58,991 nt of DNA from a virus (IMGVR_UViG_3300043432_000110:1-58991), one strand, 5' to 3'. Shown: positions 1,638-28,663, numbered from the stretch's first letter. Notes: generated from the letters alone by a model not told the origin. Numbers and translations: made by a program.

Positions 1638-2069
1638 ATGAAGAGACTACTTTACGCGGTGGCGGTGCTGGTGTTGTGCGTGTCGGGCGCGTTCGCTCAG
1701 GTTTACAGCACGATGACGCTGGGGACGAACGCCGTGCCGGCTTCTTCCACAAACTCGACGGCGTTGGGGACGGCAGTGGATATTGGGCGGCAGTCGAAGG
1801 TCGTGGTTTGGGTTTCGGCGAAGAGCCTGAGCAACACGAACCTGAACACGTTCATCCTGAGCTTCGCCGGGAGCGCCGACGGGACGACCTACCTGGCCGA
1901 CAACAGCATGCGCGTGCCGCTGGTGTTGAACGGGACTAACACGGCCACCGTTGCCAGCAACCTGGACGCGAGCTGGTATCAGTATCTACGGGCGAACCTT
2001 TACGAGTCTGCGGCTGGGAACGCCACCAACTACGTCACGAACATCGCGGTCAAATACCTACTGAAATGA
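1638..2069 (+). CDS. Signal-peptide-bearing, TN-rich protein in the virion module
   Basis: MKRLLYAVAVLVLCVSGAFA|Q Sec-type leader; 6 TN dipeptides in 143 aa. Confidence 0.75.
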   Translation: MKRLLYAVAVLVLCVSGAFAQVYSTMTLGTNAVPASSTNSTALGTAVDIGRQSKVVVWVSAKSLSNTNLNTFILSFAGSADGTTYLADNSMRVPLVLNGTNTATVASNLDASWYQYLRANLYESAAGNATNYVTNIAVKYLLK

Positions 2070-2962
2070 ACAGACTACTATTTTCCATCGGACTGCTGTT
2101 GGCTTTCGCGTTCAGCGCGCAGGCGACTATCGTGACGGGTACGGTGACGAACGCTGCCGGGGCGGCGGTGTCGTGCAAGGTCAACTTCGTGAAACTGGGG
2201 ACGGAAGCGGGCGACGGGATGATCATGACGCGGCAGGACATGTTCCAGCGCGAGACGGTTACGGCCACGGGCGCGTTCAGCATTGAGTTGACGCCGGGCA
2301 CTTACCTGATGAGTCTGTTCGATGGGACGATCTATCGGCAGCGCATCTTGACAGTGACAGGGACGACGGCGGACTACCACGCTTTGACTTCGTGGTATGA
2401 CGAGACTGTGCCGCAGAATGGGGCGAGTATCACGAACATCCCCACAACAGGCCTGACGAGCGCAATTCTGAGAAGCCTTGCGACTAACAACGCTTCAACG
2501 CTCACGAATATTCCGGCGACAGGGTTGTCGAGCGCAGTTCTGATAAAGCTGGCAACGAACAACGCGGCTTCACTGACCAACATCACGGCGTCCAGCACGA
2601 ACGCGGACACGGCGACGATAGCGACGTGGGTGACGGGCAACGGGGCGGCGCTCACGAATCAGGTGGGGTCGCAGGGTTACTTGACAGTGAACGGTGCATC
2701 GGACGGGATCGAGGTTGCGTTTAGAGCTTTTGCCGCGCAGACCAACCCGGTGTTCGCGGTGCAGTCGAGCGGTGCGGCGAACTTGGTTTCGGTCGGGCCG
2801 CAGGGCGCGTTGTTCCTGGCGACTAACGCCGTGGCGGATTGGCCAACGAACGCGGACACCTACGGCGGGGCGGCTTTCGTAAACAGCAACGCGACTGTGT
2901 TTCTGCTCATCAGCGGGCCGAACTCACGGGCGTGGACGAGCACGAACAAGATCGCTCCGTGA
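2066..2962 (+). CDS. Signal-peptide-bearing fibre-like protein (tail-fibre N-terminal-like domain, TN-rich repeats)
   Basis: MNRLLFSIGLLLAFAFSAQA| leader; TGTVTNAAG...GAFSIELTPGTY; repeated TNIPxTGLxSAxLxxLATNNA. Confidence 0.65.
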   Translation: MNRLLFSIGLLLAFAFSAQATIVTGTVTNAAGAAVSCKVNFVKLGTEAGDGMIMTRQDMFQRETVTATGAFSIELTPGTYLMSLFDGTIYRQRILTVTGTTADYHALTSWYDETVPQNGASITNIPTTGLTSAILRSLATNNASTLTNIPATGLSSAVLIKLATNNAASLTNITASSTNADTATIATWVTGNGAALTNQVGSQGYLTVNGASDGIEVAFRAFAAQTNPVFAVQSSGAANLVSVGPQGALFLATNAVADWPTNADTYGGAAFVNSNATVFLLISGPNSRAWTSTNKIAP

Positions 2963-3054
2963 AGATGGTTTATGATAATTTGAGCGCCGGGCTGCGGCTG
3001 TAGTTCCGACTTCCTTCCTTCCGGTCGCAGCTCCGGTGCGCTGAAAGAAAACAA

Positions 3055-3534
3055 ATGGCTGTGACGTGGAAAGTTCCGGTGGTAGGGGACGCAAGCAACT
3101 GGCTTCCGAAGTCGGTTGTGGACGCGGCCTCGATTCGCGACCCGCTGCAAGGGACGGAGAAGCTCACCGCGATACTCGAAGCCTGCGTTGACCGCGTGCG
3201 CGGGGCGGTGCGCAAGGGCAAGGTTACGCCGGTCAGTCTCACTACAGGAAGCGTGCCGCCGGAAGCCGTGGCGCACGTGTGGACGCTGGCGGTTGACAAG
3301 CTGGCGATGGGTGGTTCGCCGGAGCTGAGCCGCTACACGGAGACAGAGAGCTTCAAGAGCGCGAGGCAGGCGGCGGAGGACTGGCTGAAAGCGGTCAGCG
3401 ACCCCAAAGACGCGGTCGGGACGGACTACCCGGCTGACCCGGACACGGACGCAAGCGGCATGGCGCGGACGGTTGTCGTCACTCCAAACGCGGACGGGGA
3501 GATAATGACACGCGACCAGTGCGAGGGCCTGTGA
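3055..3534 (+). CDS. Head-tail adaptor (Mu gp36-like)
   Basis: Size, position and the AAEDWLKAVS motif. Confidence 0.6.
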   Translation: MAVTWKVPVVGDASNWLPKSVVDAASIRDPLQGTEKLTAILEACVDRVRGAVRKGKVTPVSLTTGSVPPEAVAHVWTLAVDKLAMGGSPELSRYTETESFKSARQAAEDWLKAVSDPKDAVGTDYPADPDTDASGMARTVVVTPNADGEIMTRDQCEGL

Positions 3535-5360
3535 ACGCGCTCGCCACCATGCGGGAGAACGACCGGCTGATCGCCGGGTTCTCAAAACACTCTCACCGGG
3601 CTGCGGCGAGTCCTGTCAAGCAGGTGTCACGCGGCCTGAGCAACTCGCCTGGATTTCAAAATCTTGGGTTTCAGGGCGCTGGTCGTCTTCCGTCTCTCAT
3701 ACCTGCGGCCAGCGCCCCCTTGCTTCAGGCGAACGAACGGCTGATCGTGCAATGGGAGAATGAGCAACTGATTCAGGACGTGGCTGTGAAACTGTTGGCC
3801 AACACCGCCCCACCAGACAACAAGAACACGCGGCACGCTGCGGCCACTCTCTTGCGCACGGTCCAACTTCAGGGCGTAGCGCTGTGGATCGAGGGCAAGG
3901 TGAACGAGCGGTTGGCGCACTTGCAGACAGAGCTAGTGGCGACGGTTAGGGCCGATGATCCCACGGACGACTCCCCGGCGCAGTTGGCGAAGCTGTTCAA
4001 CGACGCCGAGCAGAGGATACGGGGCGCGTTCGCTCAAGTGCAAGGGCAGGTGGAACATTGGCTGCGGCAGGTGGCCAAGGCGGTCGGGGACAGGAGCCGG
4101 GCGGAACTAAAGGCGCACCACAACCGGGTGGTCATCACGGGCGGCATGGACAAAGCGGCTCAAGCGCCGGTACTGGGGTTGACGCTGGGCGAACACTTCA
4201 AGAGCCAGGCGGACGGGCTGCTGCTGCGGTTCAAGAGCGCTATCAGGACCGGGCTGGCGGCGGGCGACACGCTGGACAAGCTGGTCAATCGTGTGACGGG
4301 CGACGAGCGGAGCGTGGAGGCGGTGAATGCCGCGCCGATGGGGCACGAGTTTTACGGGAATCAGTGGACCGACGTTGGCGGTGGAGTATCGGAACTGACA
4401 GGCGACAGGGGGAAATTCGTGGACAGCGCGGATAAAGATGTCCAGTCGTGGCCAGAAGGAGACGCCAAGGAACAAGCACAGAACGCTCTTGAAGACATCC
4501 GTGAGGATAAGTCGGGACATGTGCTGGTGGTGCGCGGGGAGAATGGTAGAATTGAAGGCTTGGCAAAAACATCTCCGAGTCCTGACGGAAATTCACTGAA
4601 CCTGAATTTCATGGCGAGCCGTGAGCGTGGACAAGGCGCTGGCAGGAAGATGATGTTGTCGGTCTTGGAAAAAGCGGGGGGACAGAAGAAGGCGTTGACA
4701 CTTCACGCCACTTTAGATTCAGCTCCGTTCTACCGGAAGTTCAATCCTACAAGCGAAAACGGGGCGCAGTTTTACTGGTCGCCGAAGTTTACTCGTCGCT
4801 ACTCCGGCGTATCTGGAGCTAACGCCGAGTTTGTTTCCACCGCGTTACAAGTCGCCGTGCGCATCGTTGACGCGGCGGAGGGCAGCTTCTCCAAGCTGAT
4901 AGAGTCGGCGGTTCACGCCGTCGCGCAGGCCGTCGAGGAAGGCGTGTTCGACTCCATGCCGGACGCGGACAAGTCAACGATGGGCTGGCAGTGGGTCGGC
5001 GTGTTGGACGACCGCATCTGTGAGCGGTGCGAGTTTTATGACGGCAGCCTCTACGACTCAGAGTACGAGCCGGTCGGGGACTCGCCGGAACTACAGGAAG
5101 CTCCGCCCTTGCACTTCAACTGCCGCTGCAAGCTGGTCGCCGTGGACCTGGAGGCTGAACCGTTGCCGAAGGAGACGAAGCTGGACGGTTGGCTCAAGAC
5201 GATTGACGAGCGTTCACCAGCCGCGACCAAGGCTGTATTCGGGCAAGGGCCGACTGAGGCTTTCCGGCGTGGGGACTTGACCGGGGCGGACCTGCTCAAG
5301 AGCGTCAGGCCATACAGCCCGGACGAATTCGCGGAGATCGAGAGCGTGATGAACCGATGA
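3531..5360 (+). CDS. MuF minor head protein with an inserted GNAT-like domain
   Basis: C-terminal WQWVGVLDDRICERC...PPLHFNCRC MuF signature; internal RGQGAGRKMM...FYRKF GNAT motifs; GTG start coupled to upstream stop. Confidence 0.85.
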   Translation: MNALATMRENDRLIAGFSKHSHRAAASPVKQVSRGLSNSPGFQNLGFQGAGRLPSLIPAASAPLLQANERLIVQWENEQLIQDVAVKLLANTAPPDNKNTRHAAATLLRTVQLQGVALWIEGKVNERLAHLQTELVATVRADDPTDDSPAQLAKLFNDAEQRIRGAFAQVQGQVEHWLRQVAKAVGDRSRAELKAHHNRVVITGGMDKAAQAPVLGLTLGEHFKSQADGLLLRFKSAIRTGLAAGDTLDKLVNRVTGDERSVEAVNAAPMGHEFYGNQWTDVGGGVSELTGDRGKFVDSADKDVQSWPEGDAKEQAQNALEDIREDKSGHVLVVRGENGRIEGLAKTSPSPDGNSLNLNFMASRERGQGAGRKMMLSVLEKAGGQKKALTLHATLDSAPFYRKFNPTSENGAQFYWSPKFTRRYSGVSGANAEFVSTALQVAVRIVDAAEGSFSKLIESAVHAVAQAVEEGVFDSMPDADKSTMGWQWVGVLDDRICERCEFYDGSLYDSEYEPVGDSPELQEAPPLHFNCRCKLVAVDLEAEPLPKETKLDGWLKTIDERSPAATKAVFGQGPTEAFRRGDLTGADLLKSVRPYSPDEFAEIESVMNR

Positions 5361-6010
5361 GCGCCGCTGTAACAGTCACGGTTTTGAAGGACAATGCAAC
5401 GCCGGCGATGGCTGAGCTTTCCAAGTTCGCCACGGCGTCGAGCGTGCGTGCGCGCATGATGACCGCGTGCATTGACTTGACCAAAGAACACGTGGCAGCG
5501 CTCGGGCCGAACAAACAAGGATGGCCGACGACCAACTTCTACAAGACGGTAGCGGAAGAAGGCACGGACGGTCTGTTGACATCTGATGGGTTCGTTGTGC
5601 GAGTGGATCACCCTAACAAGCCCGGTTCTATGCGGCAGAGGTTTTATGGCGGGACGATCCGCATGAAGGACAAGATGCTAACGATACCGGCGCGGGCTGA
5701 GTTTTATGGCAGGACAGCAACGGAGTTCACCAACCTGCGGCTGGCGGTGTTCGGCAGCGGGACTCTGGCTTTGGTTGTAGGTAAAGGTGGAGTGGGTCGG
5801 GTGAACTTTGCGACTGGGCAAGAGAAGAGCGTGCGCGGTGCTGGAAAGCGGGCGGAGTCAATGGTAGCATACTGGCTCAAGGAATCGGTTGACCAAGACC
5901 CGGATGCCGGAGTTATTCCAGACGAGCAGACTTACGCGGACACATGCGTTGAGAACTTGGCTGCTCAGTTTGACATGTGGAACGAGATGAAGGGAGCGAA
6001 GCTGAATTGA
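5357..6010 (+). CDS. Virion morphogenesis/tail-completion protein (Mu gpG-like)
   Basis: Position; YGGTIRMKDKMLTIP motif. Confidence 0.55.
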   Translation: MSAAVTVTVLKDNATPAMAELSKFATASSVRARMMTACIDLTKEHVAALGPNKQGWPTTNFYKTVAEEGTDGLLTSDGFVVRVDHPNKPGSMRQRFYGGTIRMKDKMLTIPARAEFYGRTATEFTNLRLAVFGSGTLALVVGKGGVGRVNFATGQEKSVRGAGKRAESMVAYWLKESVDQDPDAGVIPDEQTYADTCVENLAAQFDMWNEMKGAKLN

Positions 6011-6011
6011 C

Positions 6012-6728
6012 ATGCTCGACCTCGTCCAAGCACAGAAGGATTTGACGCACGCTCTATTGAGCGCGGAGAACCTGCGTAGCGTGGCGGTGTTGAGCTACCG
6101 GGCGAAACGGATTGCGAACGAGCTGGACTATAGGACGTTCCTGACGACCGGGCGCAACGGACGAACGGGGGCGTTCGTCATGGTGATGATGCCGGAAGCG
6201 TTGTCAGGCCATCGCAACGTGACCGGGCCGATCCTCGACTGGGACTTTCCTGTGATATGCATCGAGCAGCCGGACTTGAACCTGGACAGCCAGAACGGGA
6301 CGTTGCTGAGCGCAGAGGAGATCGGGCAGCGGGTCATGGACGCTCTGCACCTGCACGCGGACGAGTATTACGGGACGTTCGCCATTACTGGAAAGGCTAT
6401 GAAGGCGGAGGGCGACTTTGTGTTTCCAGGGTGCATCGGCTACCGGGTGACGCTTTCCTTGTCGGTGGGGCGCAATACACAGACGGCGCGGTGCGCCGGG
6501 GTGGCGGTGGCCATTGGCACAGGCACTTGCACACTGACGTGCGCCACGGTCGGGGCGGAGATTTACTACACCACAGACGGGACATTCCCATCGTGGTCAA
6601 ACACAGTCAACCCGTCCGCCATTCTCTACGAGACGCCATTTGCGGTCGTGAGTGGGGACATAATCCGAGCCTGCGCGTATGCGATGGGCTACAATGCATC
6701 ACCAGTGCGGCGAGTTGTCGCAACGTAA
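6012..6728 (+). CDS. Putative tail terminator with C-terminal Fn3-associated/chitobiase-C-like domain
   Basis: LTCATVGAEIYYTTDGTFPS...YETPF motif; precedes tail tube gene. Confidence 0.55.
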   Translation: MLDLVQAQKDLTHALLSAENLRSVAVLSYRAKRIANELDYRTFLTTGRNGRTGAFVMVMMPEALSGHRNVTGPILDWDFPVICIEQPDLNLDSQNGTLLSAEEIGQRVMDALHLHADEYYGTFAITGKAMKAEGDFVFPGCIGYRVTLSLSVGRNTQTARCAGVAVAIGTGTCTLTCATVGAEIYYTTDGTFPSWSNTVNPSAILYETPFAVVSGDIIRACAYAMGYNASPVRRVVAT

Positions 6729-6746
6729 ACAGAAAGAGAGCACAAC

Positions 6747-7718
6747 ATGGCAGACCAAATCATCTATGCAGGACCGGGCAAGTTCAAACTGGGATCCGCG
6801 TGGTACGCGCACGCGGAAGGGGGCAGCGAAATTGTCGCCCGCATGATCGAAGAAACGCACCCTGCCGTCAGCAGTTTGCACGGCACGCTCAAGCATTACG
6901 CCGGGGAACAGCGGGCGGAAATCAGCTTCACGCCCTTTGATGACTGGTCGCTGATTCCAAAGCTGCTACCTTTCCCGCACGTGAAGTGGAAGGGAACGGC
7001 TGGAACATTGGCGCAAGGCGCGGACCCGCATACCGGGACTGCCGTTGCGGGCCAGCTTTACCGCATGGACGGGACGGGTGGGCTGACCTTCCTGCGGTGC
7101 GCGATTACCGGACATCCCTCAATTCATCTCGGAATTGACAAGCCGCTGTTTGATGGCGTGACCGTGACGGCTCTGGGTGTGTTGACCGTGGGAACGAATC
7201 GAGGTGATGCTGGATTCCTTTACACCGTGACCGACACCGGCGACACGATGGCGGCAACGACTTACAGCTCCGCCAACCTGCTGCGCGGCAACTGGACGGG
7301 CGTGTACGGCTCTGTGCTTCCGAGCATCGAGGCCGTTGACGGCTGGACGATCACGCCCACCGTGTCCTATCGGTCGCACAAGTCGGCGGGCGGTCTGACG
7401 CGAAAGATGACGCTCGAAAACATTGACTTCGAGGTAACGTGCAAACCCACAGGGCCAACCGGGACACTGATGAAAGCGGCTCTGTCGCGCCTGAGTTTGG
7501 GTGAGGAATTGCTGAGTGGTGATGACTTAGTACTGACGCACAATGATGGGCTAACCAAAGTCACGCTGGTCAAACCTGCTGTCACCGGGGGCGGAATGGC
7601 TTACGGCAATGACCTTGGCTTTCAGGAAATCTCGTTCCGCTCAAGCGTCACACTGGCAAGCGATGTCGTCACTCCTGTGTTGGAGTTCACAGACGTTGGC
7701 GGATCGGTTACTCCATGA
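6747..7718 (+). CDS. Putative major tail (tube) protein
   Basis: 323 aa, Gly/Thr-rich, position after neck genes; no sheath gene seen. Confidence 0.5.
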   Translation: MADQIIYAGPGKFKLGSAWYAHAEGGSEIVARMIEETHPAVSSLHGTLKHYAGEQRAEISFTPFDDWSLIPKLLPFPHVKWKGTAGTLAQGADPHTGTAVAGQLYRMDGTGGLTFLRCAITGHPSIHLGIDKPLFDGVTVTALGVLTVGTNRGDAGFLYTVTDTGDTMAATTYSSANLLRGNWTGVYGSVLPSIEAVDGWTITPTVSYRSHKSAGGLTRKMTLENIDFEVTCKPTGPTGTLMKAALSRLSLGEELLSGDDLVLTHNDGLTKVTLVKPAVTGGGMAYGNDLGFQEISFRSSVTLASDVVTPVLEFTDVGGSVTP

Positions 7719-8131
7719 TGATCGGCTACAGACTGACGAGTTCATCGGGAACTGACTACACGCCCTTGTTCGATGAGGAACTGGGGGACGTGTTGGAACA
7801 GTTCCCACCGTCATTCGCGCCAGTCAACCAGATCGAGCCGCTGCTGGGGGCGACGAACCAGTTCGCCGAACCGAGAGGGAACATCCGCTGCTCGTTCACG
7901 CTGAACGTGACGATGACTTACGCGAGTGCGGACGACGCGCTGCGTTCCATCCGCACGCCGTGGTCTGAGCTGCTCAACGCGAAGTTCCACCTGAAAGTAA
8001 CACAGGGCGAGGAAGAGCAGTACTACCCAAACGCCGTGGCGACAGGTTACTCGCCGGCGTGGTTCGGATTGACCGTCATTCACAGCATGAGCTTTTCGAC
8101 GGACACCGTCACAAGCACCGTACCAACATGA
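7715..8131 (+). CDS. Hypothetical tail protein
   Basis: Translationally coupled ORF in tail operon. Confidence 0.6.
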   Translation: MMIGYRLTSSSGTDYTPLFDEELGDVLEQFPPSFAPVNQIEPLLGATNQFAEPRGNIRCSFTLNVTMTYASADDALRSIRTPWSELLNAKFHLKVTQGEEEQYYPNAVATGYSPAWFGLTVIHSMSFSTDTVTSTVPT

Positions 8132-8919
8132 AAAGACTTCTGACATTCTTTGCGCTTCTGGCCGTGTGGCCTGGGTTCGGCGCGACCATCACCAATACCA
8201 TCGTTGACCCGGCTGGAAACCCGGTTGCCGTGGCCGTCAAGTTCACACTGCTGTCCAGTCCCTACGGAGACACGAACCTGTTCATCGTGGCCAAGCCGGT
8301 GACGTTCACCACGGGCACGAACGGGCTGCTGACCAACGTGCTGCGGCAGGGACTCTACCAGGTGGACTTCGGCAACTACTACGGCGGCGTCCGAATCCTG
8401 GTGCCGAACGATGCCGGCTACTACGATCTGATGACGATAGCGACGAACCTGCCGACGTGGCAGGTCACGAACTACATGCAGGTGTTCGCCGGGGCGACTC
8501 TGCTGACGGACTTGGGGACGGCCTACTACTCGAACGCGACGGCGTTCCTGCTGAGCTACCAGACCAACCAACCGCTGAGCCAGATCACGAATGCGGGGAC
8601 AATCGCCTACTCAAACGCGGCGTCCTACTTTAACGCGACGAACCTTTCACTGTGGTACTTCACCACAAATAACGGCGCGTTCCTGACCAACCTGAACCTG
8701 GCGAACGCCACCAACACCGGGACGGCAGCTTATAGCAACTCAACCGTGTTCGCGCCGAACACCTACGCCGGGGTGAGCAACGCCATGCGGTTCGCGGCGG
8801 CGACGAACATCACCGGAGTCACCGCGACGAAGCTGCTCTACACCACGAACCTATCCGGGGTTGAGATCACGAACACCATCGTCATCAGCAATGGAGTCAT
8901 CACCTCTTGGTCGCCATGA
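8128..8919 (+). CDS. Signal-peptide-bearing fibre-like protein, very TN-rich
   Basis: MKRLLTFFALLAVWPGFGA| leader; 15 TN + 5 SN in 263 aa; N-domain resembles the 2066 protein. Confidence 0.7.
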   Translation: MKRLLTFFALLAVWPGFGATITNTIVDPAGNPVAVAVKFTLLSSPYGDTNLFIVAKPVTFTTGTNGLLTNVLRQGLYQVDFGNYYGGVRILVPNDAGYYDLMTIATNLPTWQVTNYMQVFAGATLLTDLGTAYYSNATAFLLSYQTNQPLSQITNAGTIAYSNAASYFNATNLSLWYFTTNNGAFLTNLNLANATNTGTAAYSNSTVFAPNTYAGVSNAMRFAAATNITGVTATKLLYTTNLSGVEITNTIVISNGVITSWSP

Positions 8920-11900
8920 AAAGACTGCTCGCAATTCTGTTTCTGCTATCGTTCGCCGGCTGCGTGCTGGCGGACGATTCAGCGCATGTGGTCGTCAACC
9001 TCAAGGACTTTCGGCAGGTGGCCTACTCCCGGCAGCCGGTCACGCTGACTCCGATGCAGCCGGTGGCGCGGACCTATGGCACGAACCTGGTCAACCCAAC
9101 TCCGGTGACGCTGACGACTTCGACAAACGGCGTGGCGACGTTCAGCAACACTTGGTGGGGCTACTACAAGCTGACGACGCTGACGGCGGGCTGGAACATC
9201 CTGCTCGGGACGAACCAGAGCGGACTCGTGCAGGCGGCGGCTCTGGTTACAAACGTCGCTGCTTTACCCCCGTCGCCTCAGAGTAATTACTACACCATGT
9301 CGCAGGTGGACGCGATTGTGGGTGCGATCAATGTGGCGGGCGGCTCGGCCACGAACGCGCCGTGGACCGTGCCGGGCGCGAACACCTCGACGCGGACGAA
9401 CGGCTACACTGTGGCGGTGGACGTGACGGGCACGCTGACCAACAACACCACCGGCAAAGCCACCACCGCCGGCACCGCCGACACCGCCAACGCCGTCTCC
9501 GCCAACGTCAGCAACGGCCTGAACAACGCCGCCTCCACCATCGCCCTCGCCGTCGTCAGCACGAATAGCGGCAGCGGATCAACCACCACCAACGCCGCCG
9601 ATCTCACCACCGGCACGCTGGACGATGGCCGGCTTTCGGCCAACGTACTCAAAAAGACCAACGACTTTCTGGAATGGTATCCAGTGTTCACGGAGGCTTT
9701 TGCGGACAACACCTATCCTTGGAGACAAAGCCTGACCTTCAGCCCCACCAATAACTTCTCATATCGGTTGAGCGCGGGATTCAGGCAGATCATCACCGAC
9801 AGCACGAACAATTTCAACGAGTTGTCATCCGGCTACGATTACATCCGCCACGACGGCACTGGAGTCTTGACCAACGGCATCGCGAACAAAGCCGTGGTGA
9901 GCGATCAAGGGCCGGGCAACATCAGCGTGGGCACGGCGTTTGCCGCGACTTCGCAAATTCTCAGCAACGGCAACATCGGCAACCTCTACGGCTTCCACGC
10001 GATTCACCCGACGATCAGCGGCACGGGAAGGTTGACCAACTATTTCGGCTTGCTTGTGGACGCGATGACCGAGCCAGTCGGTGACATCTGGGGACTTTAC
10101 CTTGCGGGCACAAACCGGGCCTACATCGGCGGCGCGTTGCAGGTGTATGACACGGCCGGGATCGGCAGCACTTTCGCCGGCTCGGTTTACGCAACGGAGT
10201 TCACGCAGACTTCTGGTGGTGGTTATGCTTGGTCCCTCGGCCCTCAACTGTTGCGCTTCGACAATGCCGCTCAAGTTTCATGGGGTAACGGAGCAACCTA
10301 TGCGGGCACGCACGACATCGGAATCAAGCGCGGCGCGGCGGGCGTGCTCAAAGTCACCGACGGCTGGACCGGCAGCGGCCTCGGCAGTTTGACGGCCAGC
10401 AATGGAACTTTCGGAAACACGCTCACAGCCAGCATAGTGAACGCGACGAATGCAGCGGGCACCAATACGTTCGCGGGCACAGTGTCAGCCACTCAGTTCA
10501 TCGGGAGCGGCGCGCTATTGACGGACGTGCAGGCGGGCGCTTCAACGAACGTGTTCTACACCATCCCCACGCCCAGCATTTCTGTCACCACCAACACCGG
10601 CAACCTCACATTCGCCCCCTACATAGCCCCCGGCGTCTCTAACGCCTGGCAGGCGGACGCCAGCTCCATCGCCGTGGCCGTCGTCAGCACGAACAGCGGC
10701 GGTACGTCGGGCGCGCTCACGAACAACGAGGCGCGGGCGGTGGTTTTTGGTAACACTGTGACGGGTAACTTGAGGGGAGGCACGAACTACAACGAGGTTG
10801 CGGCGCTGGCGAACTCCTTTCTGTACACCAATACGTTTATTATTGGCGACGGCGGGCGCAACCTGACCACCAATACTCCTTGGCCGGGAGCGGGAAATCT
10901 AGCGGACGAGACGAACGGACTTTACGCGGGGCAAATGAACACATTTGTCGGGCCGGGCGCGGGTTCAGCCATGACTTCGGGCGACGGCAACACTTACTTC
11001 GGCTATAACGCAGGGCGCGATTCCACCGTCGCCGCGCAGAACAGTTTCTTCGGGTGGAACGCAGGATTGGAGAACACTTCAGGATACCACGACACCTACC
11101 TTGGTGTTGGAGCGGGACAGGCCGGCGTCACAAACAAATTCGCCACGATCATCGGCACGGATGCGGGATTGTCGTCCAAGAAACTCTCATGGACTACTGC
11201 CGTTGGTTCGCAGTCCGGTGGTTCTGCTTCAAGCGAAATGTCCGCGCTGCTGGGTTACACTTCCGGAGCGGAAATGATCGGCAGCACTAACAATTTGATG
11301 GGTGTTTATGCCGGCCAGTTCTTGAGCGGCACGCGCAATCAGGGCATGGGTTACGAGGCTTTGGCTCACGGCACGAACGAGGACGCCGTGGCCATCGGTT
11401 TCCGCGCCGCAAAAACGGCGGTTGGCTCGAACATTGTGGCCATTGGAAACTCAACTCTGGCTGTCAACCTTGGCGACGAGTCCATTGCCATAGGCAAGAA
11501 CGCGCTAAGTTCAGCAACGCATTCCGCTCACGACGTTGCAATCGGTTCTCGCGTGATGCAGTCCGCTACCACTTCATCCAGCTACAACGTGGGCGTAGGT
11601 GATTCGGCTCTCGTTAATTTCACCGGGGCTGGCACTGACAATGTTGGCATTGGACGCGAGGCGCTGGCAGGCATGGTTTCCGGCTCGCAGTCGGTGGCGG
11701 TCGGCTCTTACGCCGCTCACGCGACCACCGGAAACAGCCTCGCAACCTCAGTTGGCCATCAATCACTGTTCTACTCAACCGGCATCGGCAACACGGCGCT
11801 AGGCTGGCAGGCTGGCGTGGGCCTGAACGGAGCGGGGACTTACAACACCTTCCTCGGCTACGGCGCGACCGCGCAGAACGGGAGCGTGGACAACTCCACG

Positions 11901-13313
11901 GCCATCGGCAACGGCGCGACTGTCACCAATGATAATGAGATTGTCCTTGGAAACGCCTCAGTCTTGGGAACCCACCTGCGGGGGTTGGTCATGGGAAACA
12001 GCAACGCGACATTCTCCGGCACAATCTCCGGGGACGCGCTCAACATTGGACTTGGCACTTTGAACGCCGGGCAGGGCAATTTCAACGGGCTTTACGCGGA
12101 CGGTTTACTGGAGGCGAACAACGGAATCCAGATCAGCGGCGGAGGGTTGAGCGGCAAGATTGAATCCGGCGCAGCCACGAATGCAGCCGGATCCCGAGTG
12201 GCTTACCTGTCTGACGTGGCGGGCGGCAGCGCAACGAACGCCTACGCAACCATTCCTGGCCAGAATACGACCATCACCACCAATGACACGGACAAGACTT
12301 ATTCGGTTCACATCACCGGCACGCTCACCAACACCGTCGTCAACGCGATCAGCAACCAGCTCGGTACGTTGAACGTCGCCGGCAATCTCTCAGCATCGAG
12401 CCTGAGCGTGACCGGCAACACCAGCGTCGGAACAATCACCGCGCCGCATATCGCCGGCCTGGCAGACGGCATTACCAACGCCAACGGCGGCGCGCTGGCT
12501 GACGTGATTCTGCTCGCCGCGAAACAGACGACCAACGCGGCGCTAAACGCGGCGATCAACCTCACCAGCAATTGGTGGATCGGTAAATTCACCGGCCTCG
12601 GCAGCGGCTTGTCGAACGTGACCGCGATAGCGATGGCCGGCGACGCGACTTCTATTCAGGAAACCGGCGACGACCTCGTGTTCAGCACGTCCGACACGTT
12701 CCAGTTCACCGGCGGAAATGTGTTTGGCGGCAGTTTCATCGGGAGCTTTGTTGGCAACGGTGGCGATCTGACCAACCTCAACCCGGCCAACATCACAAGC
12801 GGCACGTTTGCCGGGAGCAACAATTTCACAGGCACAGTGAACCTCAACTCCGGGCTTCGCACGACCAACAACCCTGGAAACGCTGGGCAGATTCTATACT
12901 CCGGTGGGGCGAGCGCAGTCCCGTATTGGGCCGCTGCTCCCACGGGCGGTGGTGGTGGTGGTGGAATTTCCAACACCATCCCGGTGACGTTGGCCTTCAC
13001 CGCTGACCTTACCAATGTCTTTTTGGATACTAGCGCTTTCACGGACGGAAGTTTGACCGCAACCAACCACTTCATTCTGAATCTCACGAATGCTTCGCCG
13101 GCAGGGTTCGCACTTGGAGCGATGCGGTATGTGTGGATTGCGCGGGACGGTAACGGACTCTGGCAGGGTTACATCACCAACACGGCGCTCATGTCCATCG
13201 GTCAGGATATAACAGGAATCACCATCGGACCGTCGGTTAGCTCCGGCTGTTGGCTTGCGTTCAAGTGGAACGGCACGAAGTGGGGTCTGGTCGGCAATTC
13301 ATCGGGCTTCTGA
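8916..13313 (+). CDS. Large fibre/adhesin with signal peptide and beta-roll-like repeats
   Basis: MKRLLAILFLLSFAGCVLA| leader; many NTxxGxxAG/AVAIGxxA repeats; internal duplicated linkers. Confidence 0.75.
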   Translation: MKRLLAILFLLSFAGCVLADDSAHVVVNLKDFRQVAYSRQPVTLTPMQPVARTYGTNLVNPTPVTLTTSTNGVATFSNTWWGYYKLTTLTAGWNILLGTNQSGLVQAAALVTNVAALPPSPQSNYYTMSQVDAIVGAINVAGGSATNAPWTVPGANTSTRTNGYTVAVDVTGTLTNNTTGKATTAGTADTANAVSANVSNGLNNAASTIALAVVSTNSGSGSTTTNAADLTTGTLDDGRLSANVLKKTNDFLEWYPVFTEAFADNTYPWRQSLTFSPTNNFSYRLSAGFRQIITDSTNNFNELSSGYDYIRHDGTGVLTNGIANKAVVSDQGPGNISVGTAFAATSQILSNGNIGNLYGFHAIHPTISGTGRLTNYFGLLVDAMTEPVGDIWGLYLAGTNRAYIGGALQVYDTAGIGSTFAGSVYATEFTQTSGGGYAWSLGPQLLRFDNAAQVSWGNGATYAGTHDIGIKRGAAGVLKVTDGWTGSGLGSLTASNGTFGNTLTASIVNATNAAGTNTFAGTVSATQFIGSGALLTDVQAGASTNVFYTIPTPSISVTTNTGNLTFAPYIAPGVSNAWQADASSIAVAVVSTNSGGTSGALTNNEARAVVFGNTVTGNLRGGTNYNEVAALANSFLYTNTFIIGDGGRNLTTNTPWPGAGNLADETNGLYAGQMNTFVGPGAGSAMTSGDGNTYFGYNAGRDSTVAAQNSFFGWNAGLENTSGYHDTYLGVGAGQAGVTNKFATIIGTDAGLSSKKLSWTTAVGSQSGGSASSEMSALLGYTSGAEMIGSTNNLMGVYAGQFLSGTRNQGMGYEALAHGTNEDAVAIGFRAAKTAVGSNIVAIGNSTLAVNLGDESIAIGKNALSSATHSAHDVAIGSRVMQSATTSSSYNVGVGDSALVNFTGAGTDNVGIGREALAGMVSGSQSVAVGSYAAHATTGNSLATSVGHQSLFYSTGIGNTALGWQAGVGLNGAGTYNTFLGYGATAQNGSVDNSTAIGNGATVTNDNEIVLGNASVLGTHLRGLVMGNSNATFSGTISGDALNIGLGTLNAGQGNFNGLYADGLLEANNGIQISGGGLSGKIESGAATNAAGSRVAYLSDVAGGSATNAYATIPGQNTTITTNDTDKTYSVHITGTLTNTVVNAISNQLGTLNVAGNLSASSLSVTGNTSVGTITAPHIAGLADGITNANGGALADVILLAAKQTTNAALNAAINLTSNWWIGKFTGLGSGLSNVTAIAMAGDATSIQETGDDLVFSTSDTFQFTGGNVFGGSFIGSFVGNGGDLTNLNPANITSGTFAGSNNFTGTVNLNSGLRTTNNPGNAGQILYSGGASAVPYWAAAPTGGGGGGGISNTIPVTLAFTADLTNVFLDTSAFTDGSLTATNHFILNLTNASPAGFALGAMRYVWIARDGNGLWQGYITNTALMSIGQDITGITIGPSVSSGCWLAFKWNGTKWGLVGNSSGF

Positions 13314-13316
13314 CGT

Positions 13317-15575
13317 ATGCGCTACGCTCTCGCCTTCCTCCTTCTCACCGCTCGGCTCTGGGCCGCGCCGGGGGACTACCTCGGCGCACAGATCAATGCG
13401 GAAGGTTGGCGGCTCTGGATTGACTTCGAGAGCATGCCAGGAACGAACGGCACGTTTTCGTTTGGACTGGGCACAAACGGCAGCCTCACAGGTCTGGAAA
13501 AATGCGTCCTCACGCTGACCGGCCCCGGCCCGAACAGCGCGGGAAACTACGAGCCCGTCACGCGACAGCTTTGTGGCACGTTCCCCATCTACCTGCCATA
13601 CCCCGGAAACGCATTTCCCGACATTGCCGTGAACGGAACAACCACCACCGTTAAGATCGCGCTGGAGGATTACGTTTATTCGAGCGAAACGAACATCACC
13701 ATCACACTGAAGAGTGGGCTTTACACCAGCAACATCGTCAGCGGCGCGTGCGTGAACATGCCGGTGACAAACAGCTCGGGTTATGCAGCACCGCAGCCCG
13801 TGGCCGTCTGGCTCTCCAAACCGTTCAACTTGATTTCCGCGAACACCATGAAGCTTCGGGCGATGGCTTTTGACCGAGACGGCTGCGACGGGAAGCCTGT
13901 CGGACTCATGCGGTTTGTGGTTCGCGACCAGCACAACATCGGCACAACCAATTTCGTTACCCGCATGAATCGTTGGGTTTTGCCCCTGACCGGCCTGACG
14001 ATTTCCACCTACGAAGCGGATATGGACCTTTCCGGGATGACTCAGGGGGACGATCTGCGCTGCGATTACACCGCATATTCTCTCTACGGCACAGCCACGC
14101 TCGACACGATGGACGGAGTTAACCTCGTCGGGCCGTACTACGCGCCGATCACCAACGTCTGCGACCGCCTCGGCACATACGGACGGGCCTATGCCGCGAT
14201 TTCCACGGCAGGTTCGGACGCAAGCGGAGTCGTTTCCAGCAACACGGTGACAACGTGGGTTTCTCCGTTCCTGAACATGAACACCGCGTTCAACGCGATT
14301 GTGAAGTCGAATGTAATTTGGCACGGCGCGAGCCGCAGCAACCACGCGAACTCCACTTTGTATCTCGCCTCGGACATTAGCTACATGGGGAACGGGAACA
14401 ACACTGCTGTCGGAACACCCTACCCGACCGTTGCAATGCGGATTGCAAACTATCCGACCAACGCACAGTGGGCTTTCGGGATTACGAACGGCGGTGGCGG
14501 TGAGGATCGGCATTGCAAACGGCTTGTGTGCGACGGCATCAATATCGCCAGCGTCAGCGCAACTCTCGGCCTCTATAGTTCATGGGACTACTTGTTCCTC
14601 ACGAACTGTTTGATCTCGCATCGCCCTGCGCTCGTCAATCAGACCTGCACGAATTTGTACATGCAATCGTGCCTGATTTCCAACGTCGCCAGCGCGAGTT
14701 TCCTGGCCGCAGCCGACGTGTGCCCGACGCTGCTACTGGACATCTTGGACATCACCACGAACGGCTACGTGTCCAAGCCTCACAATCTGGTGGGCTACGC
14801 CCGCACAAACGCCATGACCGCGAACGCAGCCGGACAGATGATTCATTGGGAAGTGCCCTCCACGCGCACCCCGATGTTCAACCGTGGGATTTGCGCGTTT
14901 AACGATTTCCGGGGCTGGCGCGGTACGGCGGCGCCCATCAACATTTTCGACAACGCGACCTGCACGAACGGCTATGCGTTTGTGGGAAATCTCTGCGAGA
15001 TGTTCGCAGGCAACATCAATCTCGCGGGGGTCCACGCAAGCTCCACGTTTGACGCGACCAACGGCGTCATCTGGGGGAACACTTTTGTCGGGAACAGAGT
15101 CCTGATGGATTACAACTGGAACGGGAGCGCGGCGAAATACCGGGTGCTTATGACCCGCAAGAACAATTTCTACGATTGGGTATCCATCAAATCAGACACC
15201 ACCGCGCCCTACGTGGCCGCACAAACGGGGAATTGGGCGGTGGTGTATGGAGTGGGGAGGAAGGGAGAAATCAACGCCGGCACTACGAACCGCTACAACA
15301 CGCCCGTCGCGCATTCAGTAAGATTCGGGGGAATTGGCAGCATCGAAGTTTACTCACTCGCGACGAACTGGTTTCAGTTTTCGGCGCCCAAGTCGCTGAG
15401 CGCTTCGGACGGCGTGGGGATGGGTGACTACCGGGTTTTGTCCTCGTCTCCCGCGCTGAGAAACGGAGTGCAAACCGAATATATCGTGCCCTGGAGCATC
15501 ACCGGAAATGCTTTGGGAGCATTGGGGTCGGGTGGCGGTGTCGGCGCAGCAAGTCCAAGGAAAGGATTCTTTTGA
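13317..15575 (+). CDS. Signal-peptide-bearing beta-helix-like protein (possible receptor-binding protein/depolymerase)
   Basis: MRYALAFLLLTARLWA| leader; Asn-rich beta-helix-like C half; DYRVLSSSPAL motif. Confidence 0.55.
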   Translation: MRYALAFLLLTARLWAAPGDYLGAQINAEGWRLWIDFESMPGTNGTFSFGLGTNGSLTGLEKCVLTLTGPGPNSAGNYEPVTRQLCGTFPIYLPYPGNAFPDIAVNGTTTTVKIALEDYVYSSETNITITLKSGLYTSNIVSGACVNMPVTNSSGYAAPQPVAVWLSKPFNLISANTMKLRAMAFDRDGCDGKPVGLMRFVVRDQHNIGTTNFVTRMNRWVLPLTGLTISTYEADMDLSGMTQGDDLRCDYTAYSLYGTATLDTMDGVNLVGPYYAPITNVCDRLGTYGRAYAAISTAGSDASGVVSSNTVTTWVSPFLNMNTAFNAIVKSNVIWHGASRSNHANSTLYLASDISYMGNGNNTAVGTPYPTVAMRIANYPTNAQWAFGITNGGGGEDRHCKRLVCDGINIASVSATLGLYSSWDYLFLTNCLISHRPALVNQTCTNLYMQSCLISNVASASFLAAADVCPTLLLDILDITTNGYVSKPHNLVGYARTNAMTANAAGQMIHWEVPSTRTPMFNRGICAFNDFRGWRGTAAPINIFDNATCTNGYAFVGNLCEMFAGNINLAGVHASSTFDATNGVIWGNTFVGNRVLMDYNWNGSAAKYRVLMTRKNNFYDWVSIKSDTTAPYVAAQTGNWAVVYGVGRKGEINAGTTNRYNTPVAHSVRFGGIGSIEVYSLATNWFQFSAPKSLSASDGVGMGDYRVLSSSPALRNGVQTEYIVPWSITGNALGALGSGGGVGAASPRKGFF

Positions 15576-15973
15576 AGATCGTCGCCGCACTTCTCATGTC
15601 CGTTGTCGCCTGCTTCAGCCAGAGCGTACCCCTGCAATGGGACGCCTCACCAGATGCAGCGACGATGCTGCTCAACTACCGGCTCTACGCGCACACGAAC
15701 GGGCTGGACTACACCACGCGCACAAACGCGCTGGTGAGAGTCGGGGTTGGAACGAACCTGACCGCTCAGCTCGATCTTCTCAAGCCGGGCGTGTGGACCT
15801 TCGCGGCCTCCGCAATCACCACCAACGGAATCGAGAGCGGCTTCAGCAACTTTGTGGTGGTAGAGGTCGCTCGCGCACCGGGCAACATGCGGACGGTGAT
15901 CGTGCAGCAAACAACGAACCTCACGGAGGGGGTCTGGCACGATGTGGGATTTCTGAGGTTGAAGATACCATGA
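15572..15973 (+). CDS. Secreted Fn3-like protein
   Basis: Signal peptide; LQWDASPD...NYRLY...GIESGFSN; C-terminal TTNL..W...FLRL. Confidence 0.7.
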   Translation: MKIVAALLMSVVACFSQSVPLQWDASPDAATMLLNYRLYAHTNGLDYTTRTNALVRVGVGTNLTAQLDLLKPGVWTFAASAITTNGIESGFSNFVVVEVARAPGNMRTVIVQQTTNLTEGVWHDVGFLRLKIP

Positions 15974-16311
15974 CAGAAGGGAACACAATGACTAGTATAA
16001 TGAAATTCTGGGACATCGGATGGAAGATTCTGTTGGTTGTAGGGGTCGGGCTCAACCTCTACCTAACGCAGAACTTCGTGACCAAGAGGGAGTATGTTGC
16101 AGATATGACCCAAAACGCTAAGGATCACCTGACCATTCAAACCAGCATCGCTGACATTGCCACCACGTTGAAGATCATGGCAGCGGCACAGGCTCGACTT
16201 GAAGATCACGAAGCGAGAATCCGGCTGGTTGAAACAAGGCAGATTGATGTCTTGAGCCGATTGCTAACTGTCGAGAGAAACCAAGACAAGATAATGAGCA
16301 GAATACCATGA
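15970..16311 (+). CDS. Membrane-anchored coiled-coil protein (holin/antiholin-like)
   Basis: One TM segment then LEDHEARIRLVE coiled coil. Confidence 0.5.
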   Translation: MTEGNTMTSIMKFWDIGWKILLVVGVGLNLYLTQNFVTKREYVADMTQNAKDHLTIQTSIADIATTLKIMAAAQARLEDHEARIRLVETRQIDVLSRLLTVERNQDKIMSRIP

Positions 16312-16577: not shown

Positions 16578-16586
16578 ACTTTGGGC

Positions 16587-16615
16587 TTGCTTCCCGAAAC
16601 CGGATTGCTTACGCT
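16587..16615 (+). promoter_or_regulatory. Sigma70-like promoter for epimerase cassette
   Basis: TTGCTT-17 nt-TACGCT, 11 nt before ATG 16627. Confidence 0.55.
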
Positions 16616-16626
16616 TTAGCCGGCGA

Positions 16627-25980: not shown

Positions 25981-26077
25981 CGCACGACCAAGCCATGTTC
26001 GCGCTCGGGATCGCGCTGTTGGTCGCGCCGGTGCTGTTCCTGTGCGCGGCCTACTTCAAGAACGGAGGGCCGTGGCT

Positions 26078-28651: not shown

Positions 28652-28663
28652 GGTGTCGTCCTT

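What the first reader, a model, noticed from the sequence alone, without database searches (positions are those of the whole stretch)
1638..15973. Six virion-module proteins carry Sec signal peptides and are packed with Thr-Asn dipeptides
Seen: ORFs at 1638, 2066, 8128, 8916, 13317 and 15572 sit among capsid/tail genes and look like fibre, Fn3 or beta-helix proteins, yet each starts with a classical signal peptide. They are TN-rich (15 TN in 263 aa at 8128; 6 in 143 aa at 1638), versus one TN each in the capsid and tube proteins. Known: tailed-phage parts normally assemble in the cytoplasm. Inference: these are exported, possibly glycosylated on Asn or Thr by a host system, then added to virions at lysis or displayed on the infected cell. 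From memory the TN bias resembles exported proteins of some Verrucomicrobiota, hence the host guess.
Basis: partly seen in the sequence, partly recalled or inferred. Interest (0 to 1): 0.75.

Follow-up and report, generated by a model that had tools for sequence, protein, structure and literature searches.

The report
Phage fibre proteins carrying export leaders
A freshwater bacteriophage and about a dozen related phage contigs encode their tail-fibre-like proteins with secretion leaders and a threefold excess of threonine-asparagine pairs, which is unexpected because tailed phages are thought to assemble inside the cytoplasm.

Summary
The window is a whole 58,991-bp phage record. All six ORFs start with a positive n-region, a 9-13-residue hydrophobic core and small residues at -3/-1. 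Four of the starts overlap the upstream stop codon (ATGA or TTGA). TN is the top dipeptide outlier (94 observed, 33 expected, z=10.5). NT, SN, N-x-S/T and two other known sequons are not enriched.

Homologues keep the leader while its sequence drifts (SP5 3 of 3, SP3 1 of 1, SP2 family 43 of 65 by a crude rule). In 17 phage sources, TN enrichment goes with leaders: 17 of 35 leader ORFs against 7 of 301 others. SP3 and SP4 lie at the fibre position of a conserved tail module, and SP4's centre matches tail fibres of cultured phages.

Best reading, at 0.45: these are the phage's outward appendage proteins, made as Sec pre-proteins. Export, cleavage and joining the virion at lysis are inferred, not shown. 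The N-x-S/T glycosylation idea is not supported. The Verrucomicrobiota host guess could not be tested. Eight literature searches found no report of such leaders on tailed-phage fibres.

The parts
1638..2069 (+). SP1, 143 aa. Small leader-bearing, TN-rich protein directly behind the major capsid gene. The predicted leader is about the first 21 residues (MKR, 12-residue core, A-F-A before the cut).
   Evidence: The protein atlas places it next to viral clusters of 142-162 aa (score 0.95, a lead only). The word-index search found no sequence homologue. The public collection calls this gene 16 codons longer (159 aa), which only lengthens the n-region.
2066..2962 (+). SP2, 298 aa. It has a leader (MNR ... 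A-Q-A), then an N-terminal beta domain weakly like that of SP3, then repeats, then a conserved C-terminal domain of about 50 aa (nt 2807-2959) that ends the protein (motifs NSN-T-V and TNKIAP).
   Evidence: AF2 model: C-terminal part has pLDDT 70-95, residues 2-18 are helical. No fold match at E<=0.001 in PDB or BFVD.
8128..8919 (+). SP3, 263 aa. Leader-bearing fibre-like protein. Its start overlaps the stop of ORF 7715-8131 (ATGA).
   Evidence: Homologue P0006 is 65% identical, its leader has diverged, and the first 10 mature residues are identical. A syntenic homologue lies in the related record G001/L005.
8916..13313 (+). SP4, 1465 aa. Leader-bearing long fibre. Residues about 648-1042 (nt 10857-12041) form a repeat domain shared with tail fibres of cultured phages. 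The leader holds a near-lipobox (F-A-G-C) followed by V-L-A.
   Evidence: PHROG tail spike phrog_4636, E=2e-16. tblastn hits in 17 phage records, annotated tail fibre or tail structural protein. The mature N-terminal domain is 39-46% identical to the syntenic G001 protein.
13317..15575 (+). SP5, 752 aa. Leader-bearing protein, probably a right-handed beta-helix (spike or depolymerase-like).
   Evidence: 3 of 3 homologues (28-50% identity) keep a leader and the same mature start motif. The atlas neighbours are Beta_helix / pectin-lyase-like clusters at 0.88-0.92, a lead only. Pfam Beta_helix does not hit.
15572..15973 (+). SP6, 133 aa, TTG start overlapping the SP5 stop. Leader plus a small beta domain, possibly Fn3-like.
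   Evidence: Pfam Fndc10 E=0.082, below cut-off.
529..1554 (+). Major capsid protein (context). No leader, 1 TN.
   Evidence: phrog_1005 E=3.8e-5. 44% identical to an ORF in the related locus L025.
6747..8131 (+). Two conserved tail-module genes upstream of the fibres (323 aa 'tube-like' by position, and 138 aa). No leaders.
   Evidence: Syntenic homologues of the 323-aa protein in G001, L022, L023 and L026. No family hit.
16015..19513 (+). Lysis and surface-glycan block: two small membrane proteins (16015-16311, 16308-16577), a sugar epimerase (16627-17676), a multi-pass membrane protein (17691-18755), a lipoprotein (18783-19079) and a C92 papain-like amidase (19076-19513).
   Evidence: Together with SP5 and SP6, this block (13317-19513) is missing between the fibre genes and the 20792 homologue in G001.
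19518..22615 (+). Coiled-coil, tape-measure-like protein (425 aa) and a conserved 607-aa tail protein that bound the fibre slot downstream.
   Evidence: TMP_2 E=1.3e-4, below cut-off. The 607-aa protein has homologues in 13 IMG/VR loci.

Best explanation
The six ORFs are the phage's outward-facing appendage proteins. SP3 and SP4 are tail fibres, SP5 is a beta-helix spike-like protein, SP6 is a small beta-domain protein, and SP1 and SP2 lie behind the capsid gene. Each is made as a pre-protein with a cleavable Sec (signal peptidase I type) leader.

Proposed course, late in infection:
1. The proteins are threaded through the host SecYEG channel.
2. The leader is cut after the small -3/-1 residues.
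3. The fibre parts fold outside the cytoplasm.
4. DNA-filled particles, built in the cytoplasm, meet them only when the holin opens the inner membrane. Fibre attachment is therefore the last step and happens in the envelope space or the fresh lysate.
5. Before that, the exported proteins may already bind or cut the dying cell's surface glycans.

The threefold excess of Thr-Asn dipeptides is a protein-level signature of this exported set. Its cause is unknown; it may be a structural motif or the site of a modification made outside the cytoplasm.

Shown: the leader architecture, its conservation, the fibre homology and synteny, and the TN statistics. Inferred: export, cleavage, the place and time of attachment, and any modification.
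For: 1. Leader architecture is present in 6 of 6 ORFs. Four starts are fixed by 4-nt overlaps with the upstream stop. The rule's false-positive rate is 16 of 2249. The first 10 mature residues hold no K/R in any of the six. That positive charge just after a leader blocks Sec export is established knowledge, recalled by me.

2. The leader is kept while its sequence drifts.
- SP5: 3 of 3 homologues, down to 28% identity.
- SP3: 1 of 1.
- SP2's N-terminal homologue P0008 keeps it.
- SP2 family: 43 of 65 hits pass a crude leader rule. Of the other 22, 7 are fragments that do not start with M, and at least 6 show a leader further in, by eye.

3. Virion role.
- SP4 hits PHROG tail spike.
- SP4 residues 648-1042 match annotated tail fibres in 17 cultured or assembled phage records.
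- SP3 and SP4 homologues lie between the same tail genes in G001.
- In the 12 loci beyond G001's own record, drawn with the 607-aa tail protein, large leader-bearing ORFs occupy the slot upstream of it in L022, L023, L024, L026, L029, L030/L032 and L033.
- No other fibre candidate was found in the window.

4. TN follows the leader.
- 17 of 35 leader ORFs are TN-enriched against 7 of 301 others (Fisher p=6e-14).
- Without the window: 11 of 28 against 7 of 247 (p=3e-8).
- Of 18 large fibre-slot ORFs with a leader, 17 have TN at 2.3x or more with p<0.01.
- Three leaderless fibres of cultured phages with the same repeat domain have TN depleted, at 0.24-0.47x.

5. TN positions are conserved. Four TN pairs are invariant in the SP5 alignment, and two TN pairs are invariant or nearly so in the C-terminal domain.
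Against: - No trained signal-peptide predictor was run and there is no proteomic or experimental datum, so export and cleavage are inferred.
- No tailed phage is known to me, or was found in 8 literature searches, that takes virion parts from the periplasm. Attachment after lysis would have to beat dilution.
- In the relative G001, the hydrophobic segment of both fibre homologues has no start codon next to it. One has a 35-residue N-extension. The other is preceded in frame by a cold-shock domain of about 70 aa (Pfam CSD E=4e-12). There the segment would be an internal signal or anchor, or the contig has errors.
- Two relatives (L025, L028) have leaderless ORFs without TN enrichment in the fibre slot, so this tail type does not need leaders.
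- L033's 727-aa ORF has a leader without TN enrichment. L026's 662-aa ORF has TN enrichment without a recognised leader.
- SP1 and SP6 have no detected homologues, so their leaders are untested by conservation.
- The block holding SP5 and SP6 is absent from G001, so these two may be accessory.
Confidence: 0.45

Rival explanations
1. The proteins are exported but are not virion parts. They are secreted or envelope-bound accessory proteins of the infected cell. They might mask or destroy receptors, cut capsule or EPS from within, block superinfection, or keep progeny from sticking to debris. The true receptor-binding parts would then be other proteins, for example the conserved 607-aa protein and its neighbours.
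For: - The leaders look classical and are conserved.
- SP5 resembles secreted bacterial beta-helix enzymes in the atlas.
- SP5 and SP6 lie in a 6.2-kb block, with lysis and sugar-modifying genes, that the relative G001 lacks.
- SP1 and SP2 are absent behind the capsid gene of the closest capsid relative, L025.
- Cell-encoded secreted tailspike-like and fibre-like proteins exist: WceF (PMC7949094) and Bdellovibrio fibres (PMC10769870). I saw only the search listings and abstract starts.
Against: - SP3 and SP4 and their counterparts hold the fibre slot in most relatives, and no leaderless fibre candidate is seen beside them.
- SP4 shares a domain with bona fide tail fibres.
- The genes are translationally coupled to tail genes.
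- The SP2-type C-terminal domain was found in 5 viral loci and in none of 185,579 species genomes by pattern scan. It is therefore a phage family and not a borrowed host exoprotein.
Confidence: 0.22
2. The hydrophobic N-termini are not used for translocation. They would stay on the fibre proteins in the cytoplasm. There they might act as a peripheral membrane tether, as an assembly or chaperone handle, or as a plug buried in the tail. Alternatively Sec is no longer working when the late genes are expressed.
For: - Cytoplasmic assembly of tailed phages is the rule (established knowledge).
- In G001 the hydrophobic segment lies 35 to about 100 residues inside the ORF, which fits a structural or anchor segment as well as a signal.
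- Four leaders in the window share the same first five codons, ATG AAr/AAC AGA CTn CTn. This could reflect a phage-specific recognition step.
Against: - The n/h/c layout, with short cores of 9-13 residues, small -3/-1 residues and an uncharged early mature region, is what signal peptidase I substrates have. It is not what buried structural segments need.
- The leader sequence drifts freely while the residue after the predicted cut is conserved.
- With positive residues on the N side, insertion would put the bulk of the protein outside (positive-inside rule, established knowledge).
- The TN signature marks leader proteins of unrelated families, which points to a shared compartment or pathway.
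Confidence: 0.25
3. Artefact: wrong start codons, chance hydrophobic N-termini, and a composition effect that mimics a TN bias.
For: The gene calls are my own simple ORF calls. SP1 has an alternative upstream start. SP6 uses TTG.
Against: - Four of the six starts are fixed by stop-start overlaps.
- The rule passes 16 of 2249 control positions.
- Leaders recur in homologues from other samples.
- TN exceeds every one of 1000 pooled shuffles. It is specific to frame, order and residue: NT, SN, TD and TQ are not enriched.
Confidence: 0.03

Closest known systems
Sec-exported phage endolysins: signal-peptide endolysin Lys44 of Oenococcus phage fOg44, and SAR endolysins of P1 (Lyz) and phage 21 (R21)
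   Same: They are late phage proteins that use the host Sec system through an N-terminal signal, before the holin fires. I read passages of the review PMC6116005.
   Different: Those are lysis enzymes, one per phage, and are not virion parts. Here there are six fibre, spike or decoration-type proteins with no muralytic domain in Pfam, PHROG or NCBIfam scans.
Ordinary tail fibres and tailspikes of tailed phages, for example Pelagibacter phage HTVC111P gp52 and Roseobacter phage CRP-1 gp37 and CRP-7 gp48
   Same: SP4 residues 648-1042 are 27-40% identical to these fibres. Gene position in the tail module is also the same.
   Different: The three cultured-phage fibres examined have no leader. They have TN depleted (0.24-0.47x) and NT enriched. 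The window's proteins have leaders and TN at 2.4-6x.
Coat proteins of filamentous phages (M13 g3p and g8p)
   Same: They are virion proteins made with signal sequences and inserted through Sec or YidC before assembly. For PMC8310372 I saw the listing and abstract start only; the rest is recalled.
   Different: Filamentous phages assemble at the membrane and are extruded. This is a tailed dsDNA phage with portal, Mu F-like and capsid genes and a lysis cassette.
Cell-encoded secreted fibre-like and tailspike-like proteins: Bdellovibrio chimeric fibre proteins and Pantoea WceF
   Same: They combine a phage-fibre or tailspike fold with export from the cell. I saw only listings and abstract starts of PMC10769870 and PMC7949094.
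   Different: Those are bacterial genes. Here the genes lie in a phage structural operon, and the SP2-type C-terminal domain was not found in 185,579 species genomes by pattern scan.
Trimeric autotransporter adhesins and type IX secretion cargo (leader plus fibre plus conserved C-terminal domain)
   Same: The overall layout of SP2-family proteins is the same: an N-terminal leader, a variable fibre-like middle, and a conserved beta-rich domain of 50-70 aa at the very C-terminus.
   Different: No YadA anchor or T9SS C-terminal domain model matched in Pfam or NCBIfam. The fold search gave only a non-significant resemblance to a T9SS CTD (E about 1). The domain was absent from bacterial genomes in the scan.

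Membership tests
Sec / signal peptidase I signal peptides | Positively charged n-region at the N-terminus | tested here: met
   6 of 6 have 1-2 K/R in the first 3 residues. Net charge is +1 or more.
Sec / signal peptidase I signal peptides | Hydrophobic h-region of roughly 7-15 residues, shorter than a membrane span | tested here: met
   Cores of about 9-13 uncharged hydrophobic residues in 6 of 6, read. The best 10-residue Kyte-Doolittle mean is 2.1-3.0, against 1.4 or less for the 10 neighbouring structural proteins (32-463, 529-1554 and 3055-8131).
Sec / signal peptidase I signal peptides | Small neutral residues at -3 and -1 of a cut site 3-7 residues after the core, and no Pro at +1 | tested here: met
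   A-x-A, A-x-A, G-x-G, V-x-A, L-x-A and S-x-S, read. Homologues keep such a site and the same first mature residues.
Sec / signal peptidase I signal peptides | Score above threshold in a trained predictor; actual translocation and cleavage | not testable with these tools
   No SignalP or DeepTMHMM was on hand, and there are no proteomic data.
Lipoprotein (signal peptidase II) signals | Lipobox L-[AS]-[GA]-C at the end of the core (motif recalled) | tested here: not met
   5 of 6 have no lipobox. SP4 has F-A-G-C, a near match (inconclusive for SP4). The separate 98-aa protein at 18783 does have C-A-G-C after a core.
Tail fibre / tailspike (virion receptor-binding proteins) | Sequence homology to known fibre or spike domains | tested here: met
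   SP4 only: phrog_4636 E=2e-16 and 17 phage records. SP2, SP3, SP5 and SP6 have no named family.
Tail fibre / tailspike (virion receptor-binding proteins) | Position in the tail gene module, conserved in relatives | tested here: met
   SP3 and SP4 are syntenic in G001. Large ORFs in the same slot occur in 12 related loci.
Tail fibre / tailspike (virion receptor-binding proteins) | Presence in purified virions | not testable with these tools
   The phage is uncultured; there is no proteome.
N-glycoproteins with N-x-S/T (or D/E-x-N-x-S/T) sequons | Sequon enrichment in the exported set | tested here: not met
   N-x-S/T: 55 observed against 53.9 in shuffles. D/E-x-N-x-S/T: 1 against 2.5.
Type IX secretion cargo / trimeric autotransporters | Recognised C-terminal sorting or anchor domain | tested here: not met
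   No such Pfam or NCBIfam model matched at E<=0.1 or E<=1. The fold searches gave nothing at E<=0.001.

The most novel reading that the evidence does not exclude
A clade of freshwater tailed phages sends all of its solvent-exposed appendage proteins through the host secretory pathway. The Thr-Asn dipeptide would be a new minimal site for a modification made outside the cytoplasm, for example a glycan. Virion maturation would then be split between cytoplasm and periplasm and completed only at lysis, a prokaryotic counterpart of the way eukaryotic viruses mature their surface glycoproteins. The phage's own sugar epimerase and multi-pass membrane protein next to SP5 and SP6 might take part.
Probability: 0.15. 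Interest if true: 0.9.

Novelty: new variant of a known kind. Interest (0 to 1): 0.7.

Why it matters
Tailed-phage assembly is textbook cytoplasmic, and fibre attachment is thought to finish before lysis. If a whole clade exports its fibres, there would be an unrecognised assembly route with three consequences:
- a reason why some metagenomic fibres fail to fold when expressed in the cytoplasm;
- a possible new protein modification marked by TN;
- a simple sequence signature (leader plus TN excess) for finding receptor-binding proteins in uncultured phages.

If the proteins are instead secreted accessory factors, phages would be placing fibre-like binders or glycan cutters on the dying cell. 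That bears on superinfection exclusion and on progeny release.

Tried and rejected
Searches that found nothing or too little:
- Capsid protein against IMG/VR and against cultured phages: no relatives.
- SP5 alignment against IMG/VR: none.
- SP2 against cultured phages: none.
- SP1 homologue search: only itself.
- SP1 against the positionally equivalent small leader proteins of L030 and L004 by BLASTP: no similarity.
- PDB sequence searches with SP4, A1 and A2: none.
- Fold searches of the SP2 model in PDB and BFVD: nothing at E<=0.001.
- NCBIfam on the six proteins: nothing.
- Pfam Beta_helix on the window: no hit.

Host:
- No tRNA genes.
- The epimerase gave one MAG titled Bifidobacteriaceae at 58% identity, and no other gene is shared with it. 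I reject this as a host call.
- Relatives cannot be drawn for a virus record.

Habitat: runs X1 and X2 (one sample, possibly the source) are labelled freshwater metagenome.

Ideas considered and dropped:
- A DNA-level motif behind TN: rejected by the frame test (95, 2 and 1) and by recurrence in contigs of 40-66% GC.
- Known glycosylation sequons: not enriched.
- NG turns as the cause: NG is 36 against 31.3, although TNG is 13 against 4.0.
- An extended motif around TN: only mild I/L at -1, G/A at +2 and P/F/V at +3, with a TN-to-TN spacing peak at 8.
- T9SS cargo, autotransporter and lipoprotein readings: see the membership tests.
- A resemblance of the long n-regions in L005 and L024 to the extended signal peptide region of autotransporters. 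This was seen by eye from recall and was not tested.

Papers: 8 searches gave no report of Sec leaders on tailed-phage fibres or of a TN signature. I saw listings and abstract starts only, apart from passages of PMC6116005 and PMC6811365. Supplements were closed, so virion proteome tables that might list such proteins could not be seen.

Full report
WHAT THE WINDOW IS. The window is one complete IMG/VR virus record of 58,991 bp with direct terminal repeats. Nearly all its genes are on the + strand. Family scans give these assignments:
- a cement/scaffold-like protein (32-463);
- a major capsid protein (529-1554, phrog_1005, weak);
- a Mu F-like head protein with a GNAT domain (3519-5360);
- an Fn3_assoc protein (6012-6728);
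- a portal protein (52343-53926);
- a small terminase subunit (48693-49253);
- a helicase, a methyltransferase and an exonuclease;
- a nucleotide-sugar epimerase (16627-17676);
- a C92 papain-like amidase (19076-19513);
- a weak tape-measure-like protein (19518-20795).
So this is a tailed dsDNA phage. The runs that hold it are labelled freshwater metagenome and may be its source.

THE OBSERVATION. I call the six ORFs SP1-SP6, and they are as described. Each starts with 1-2 basic residues, then an uncharged hydrophobic core of about 9-13 residues, then small residues at -3/-1. None has K or R in the first 10 residues after the predicted cut (read). SP2, SP3 and SP4 start in an ATGA overlap with the upstream stop and SP6 in a TTGA overlap, so these starts are not a free choice. 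A simple n/h/c rule passes 9 of 80 window ORFs: the six, the lipoprotein at 18783 and two doubtful ones. It passes 16 of 2249 internal start codons. No trained predictor was available.

The six proteins are also poor in charged residues (K+R+D+E 0.06-0.13, against 0.13-0.41 for the others).

- Per-protein shuffles reach them 0-2 times in 5000.
- Pooled, TN is 94 observed against 33.2 expected (z=10.5). The next dipeptide has z=3.0.
- NT is 33 against 33.2.
- In 23 other proteins of the phage, TN is 23 against 18.3.
- The bias is specific for Thr (SN 27 against 22.3), for Asn (TD and TQ are depleted) and for the order of the two residues.
- ACNAAY lies in frame 0 in 95 of 98 occurrences, so this is a protein-level feature.

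HOMOLOGUES KEEP THE LEADER.
- SP5 has 3 homologues among 5.8 billion clustered proteins. All 3, at 50, 48 and 28% identity, have a different but equally hydrophobic leader and the same mature start motif.
- SP3 has one homologue (65% identity). Its leader has diverged and its first ten mature residues are identical.
- A full HMMER scan of 1.84 billion representatives with SP2 gave 65 other proteins. One matches the N-terminal half, leader included. Most share only a C-terminal domain of about 50 residues that ends the protein.
- Of these 65, 43 pass a crude leader rule. 7 of the rest are fragments that lack their start, and at least 6 more show a leader further in, by eye.
- The family is TN-rich: 565 against 187.7, and 400 against 138 without the conserved domain.
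- The domain has no Pfam, NCBIfam, PDB or fold match.
- It was found in 5 IMG/VR loci with GC 0.40-0.63. It was found in none of 185,579 species genomes by pattern scan and in no cultured phage.

A CLADE-WIDE TRAIT.
One of the five loci, L005 (record G001), is a true relative. tblastn finds homologues of the 6012, 6747, SP3, SP4, 18783, 20792 and 24050 proteins, and the first four and the 20792 homologue lie in the window's order.

An alignment of the 607-aa tail protein with its G001 homologue drew 13 IMG/VR loci, 12 of them beyond G001's own record. In the slot between the tube-like gene plus a 135-aa gene and the coiled-coil protein plus the 607-aa homologue:
- L022, L023, L024, L026, L029, L030/L032 and L033 carry large ORFs with leaders;
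- L025 (capsid 44% identical to the window's) and L028 carry leaderless ones;
- L027 has small leader ORFs elsewhere;
- L031 is unclear.

Over 336 ORFs of 100 aa or more from 17 sources (L032 dropped as a near-duplicate of L030):
- TN enrichment (Poisson p<0.01) occurs in 17 of 35 leader ORFs and in 7 of 301 others (Fisher p=6e-14);
- without the window it is 11 of 28 against 7 of 247 (p=3e-8);
- four or five of the 7 exceptions have a leader that my rule missed.

Among 22 large fibre-slot or fibre-family ORFs:
- 17 of the 18 with a leader have TN at 2.3x or more (p<0.01); L033's does not;
- of the 3 without a leader, L026's 662-aa ORF is enriched, and those of L025 and L028 are not;
- one N-terminus is unclear.

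Three leaderless fibres of cultured marine phages that share SP4's repeat domain have TN depleted (0.24-0.47x) and NT enriched. The TN excess is therefore not a property of that fold.

WHAT THE PROTEINS ARE.
- SP4 is a tail fibre by homology (phrog_4636; 17 phage records).
- SP3 and SP4 are fibres by synteny.
- SP5 is probably a right-handed beta-helix. This is a lead from language-model neighbours only (0.88-0.92); Pfam does not hit.
- SP6 may be Fn3-like (below threshold).
- SP1 sits next to viral clusters of like size in the atlas (0.95). It has no sequence homologue and no similarity to the small leader proteins that follow the capsid gene in L030 and L004.
- SP5 and SP6 lie with the lysis and sugar genes in a 6.2-kb block (13317-19513) that G001 lacks at this place.

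THINGS THAT COMPLICATE THE PICTURE. In G001 the hydrophobic segment of both fibre homologues has no ATG, GTG or TTG next to it. One ORF has a 35-residue N-extension that contains a 66-nt direct duplication. The other is preceded in frame by a cold-shock domain (Pfam CSD E=4e-12) and a basic linker. L024's fibre also has a long N-extension. Either long n-regions or internal signals are tolerated, or these contigs have errors. Either way the hydrophobic core and the small-residue site are kept.

MECHANISM. I commit to Sec export of the appendage proteins, with cleavage by signal peptidase I, folding outside the cytoplasm, and attachment to cytoplasm-built particles once the holin opens the inner membrane (confidence 0.45).

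The rivals are:
- exported accessory proteins that never join the virion (0.22);
- hydrophobic N-termini with a non-export role (0.25);
- artefact (0.03).

The short leaders, a lipoprotein and a type II membrane protein near the amidase suggest a host with an outer membrane, but this is a lead only. The host is unknown.

The TN signature is unexplained.
- Known sequons are not enriched.
- There is no extended motif around TN.
- TN pairs are among the invariant positions in both alignments.
A modification site or a turn motif peculiar to these exported beta-rich proteins both remain open. The multi-pass membrane protein at 17691-18755 has only a far-below-threshold hit to a cell-surface glycopolymer family (E=0.0046).

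COMPARISON WITH WHAT IS KNOWN. Phage proteins known to use host Sec are endolysins with signal peptides or SAR domains (passages of PMC6116005) and the coat proteins of filamentous phages. Secreted fibre-like or tailspike-like proteins are known as bacterial genes (listings only). Eight full-text searches gave no report of Sec leaders on the fibres of tailed phages, nor of a TN signature. Supplements were closed, so virion proteome tables could not be checked. I file this as a new variant of a known kind: tail fibres made as secretory pre-proteins. The SP2-type C-terminal domain is an undescribed phage family.

VERDICT. Interest 0.7.

Noticed in passing
L005:7307-7630 (record G001): A cold-shock domain (Pfam CSD E=4e-12) is read in frame, with no stop, into the SP4 homologue. 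It lies ahead of a basic linker and the hydrophobic segment. This may be a real fusion, a captured csp gene or an assembly error.
   Followed up: partly
L005:5784-5873: A 24-nt string occurs twice, 66 nt apart, inside the leader-coding part of the SP3 homologue. The GC-rich stretch between the copies looks hairpin-like. Removing one copy and the insert would give an ordinary leader.
   Followed up: no
window 2807-2959, and the C-termini of P0008-P0072 and of ORFs in L002-L006: An undescribed C-terminal domain of about 50 aa (motifs W-P-T, NSN-G-T-V-Y-L-L-T-S, and T-N-K-L-A-P at the very end) sits on leader-bearing proteins of 86 to about 1100 aa. It was found only in metagenomic and viral sequences.
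   Followed up: partly
window 3519-5360: The Mu F-like head protein carries a GNAT acetyltransferase domain (residues 314-408) ahead of the Mu F domain (467-539).
   Followed up: no
window 16627-18755: A nucleotide-sugar epimerase and a multi-pass membrane protein (weak hit to a cell-surface glycopolymer formation family, E=0.0046) sit between the fibre genes and the lysis genes. This may be a surface-glycan modification module.
   Followed up: partly
window 1638, 2066, 8128, 8916: Four leaders share the first five codons, ATG AAr/AAC AGA CTn CTn (M-K/N-R-L-L), with AGA for Arg each time. Many leaders in the relatives hold a Cys near the end of the core.
   Followed up: no
window 26000-31000: This stretch has lower GC (0.52-0.55) and several minus-strand ORFs (27618-29461). 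It may be a regulatory or lysogeny module. It was not examined.
   Followed up: no
window 49693-51063: My simple caller picked a minus-strand ORF where a large terminase gene would be expected, between the small terminase subunit and the portal. The large terminase subunit was not identified.
   Followed up: no
window 20792-22615: The conserved 607-aa tail protein has no leader but a mild TN excess (7 observed against 2.4 expected).
   Followed up: no
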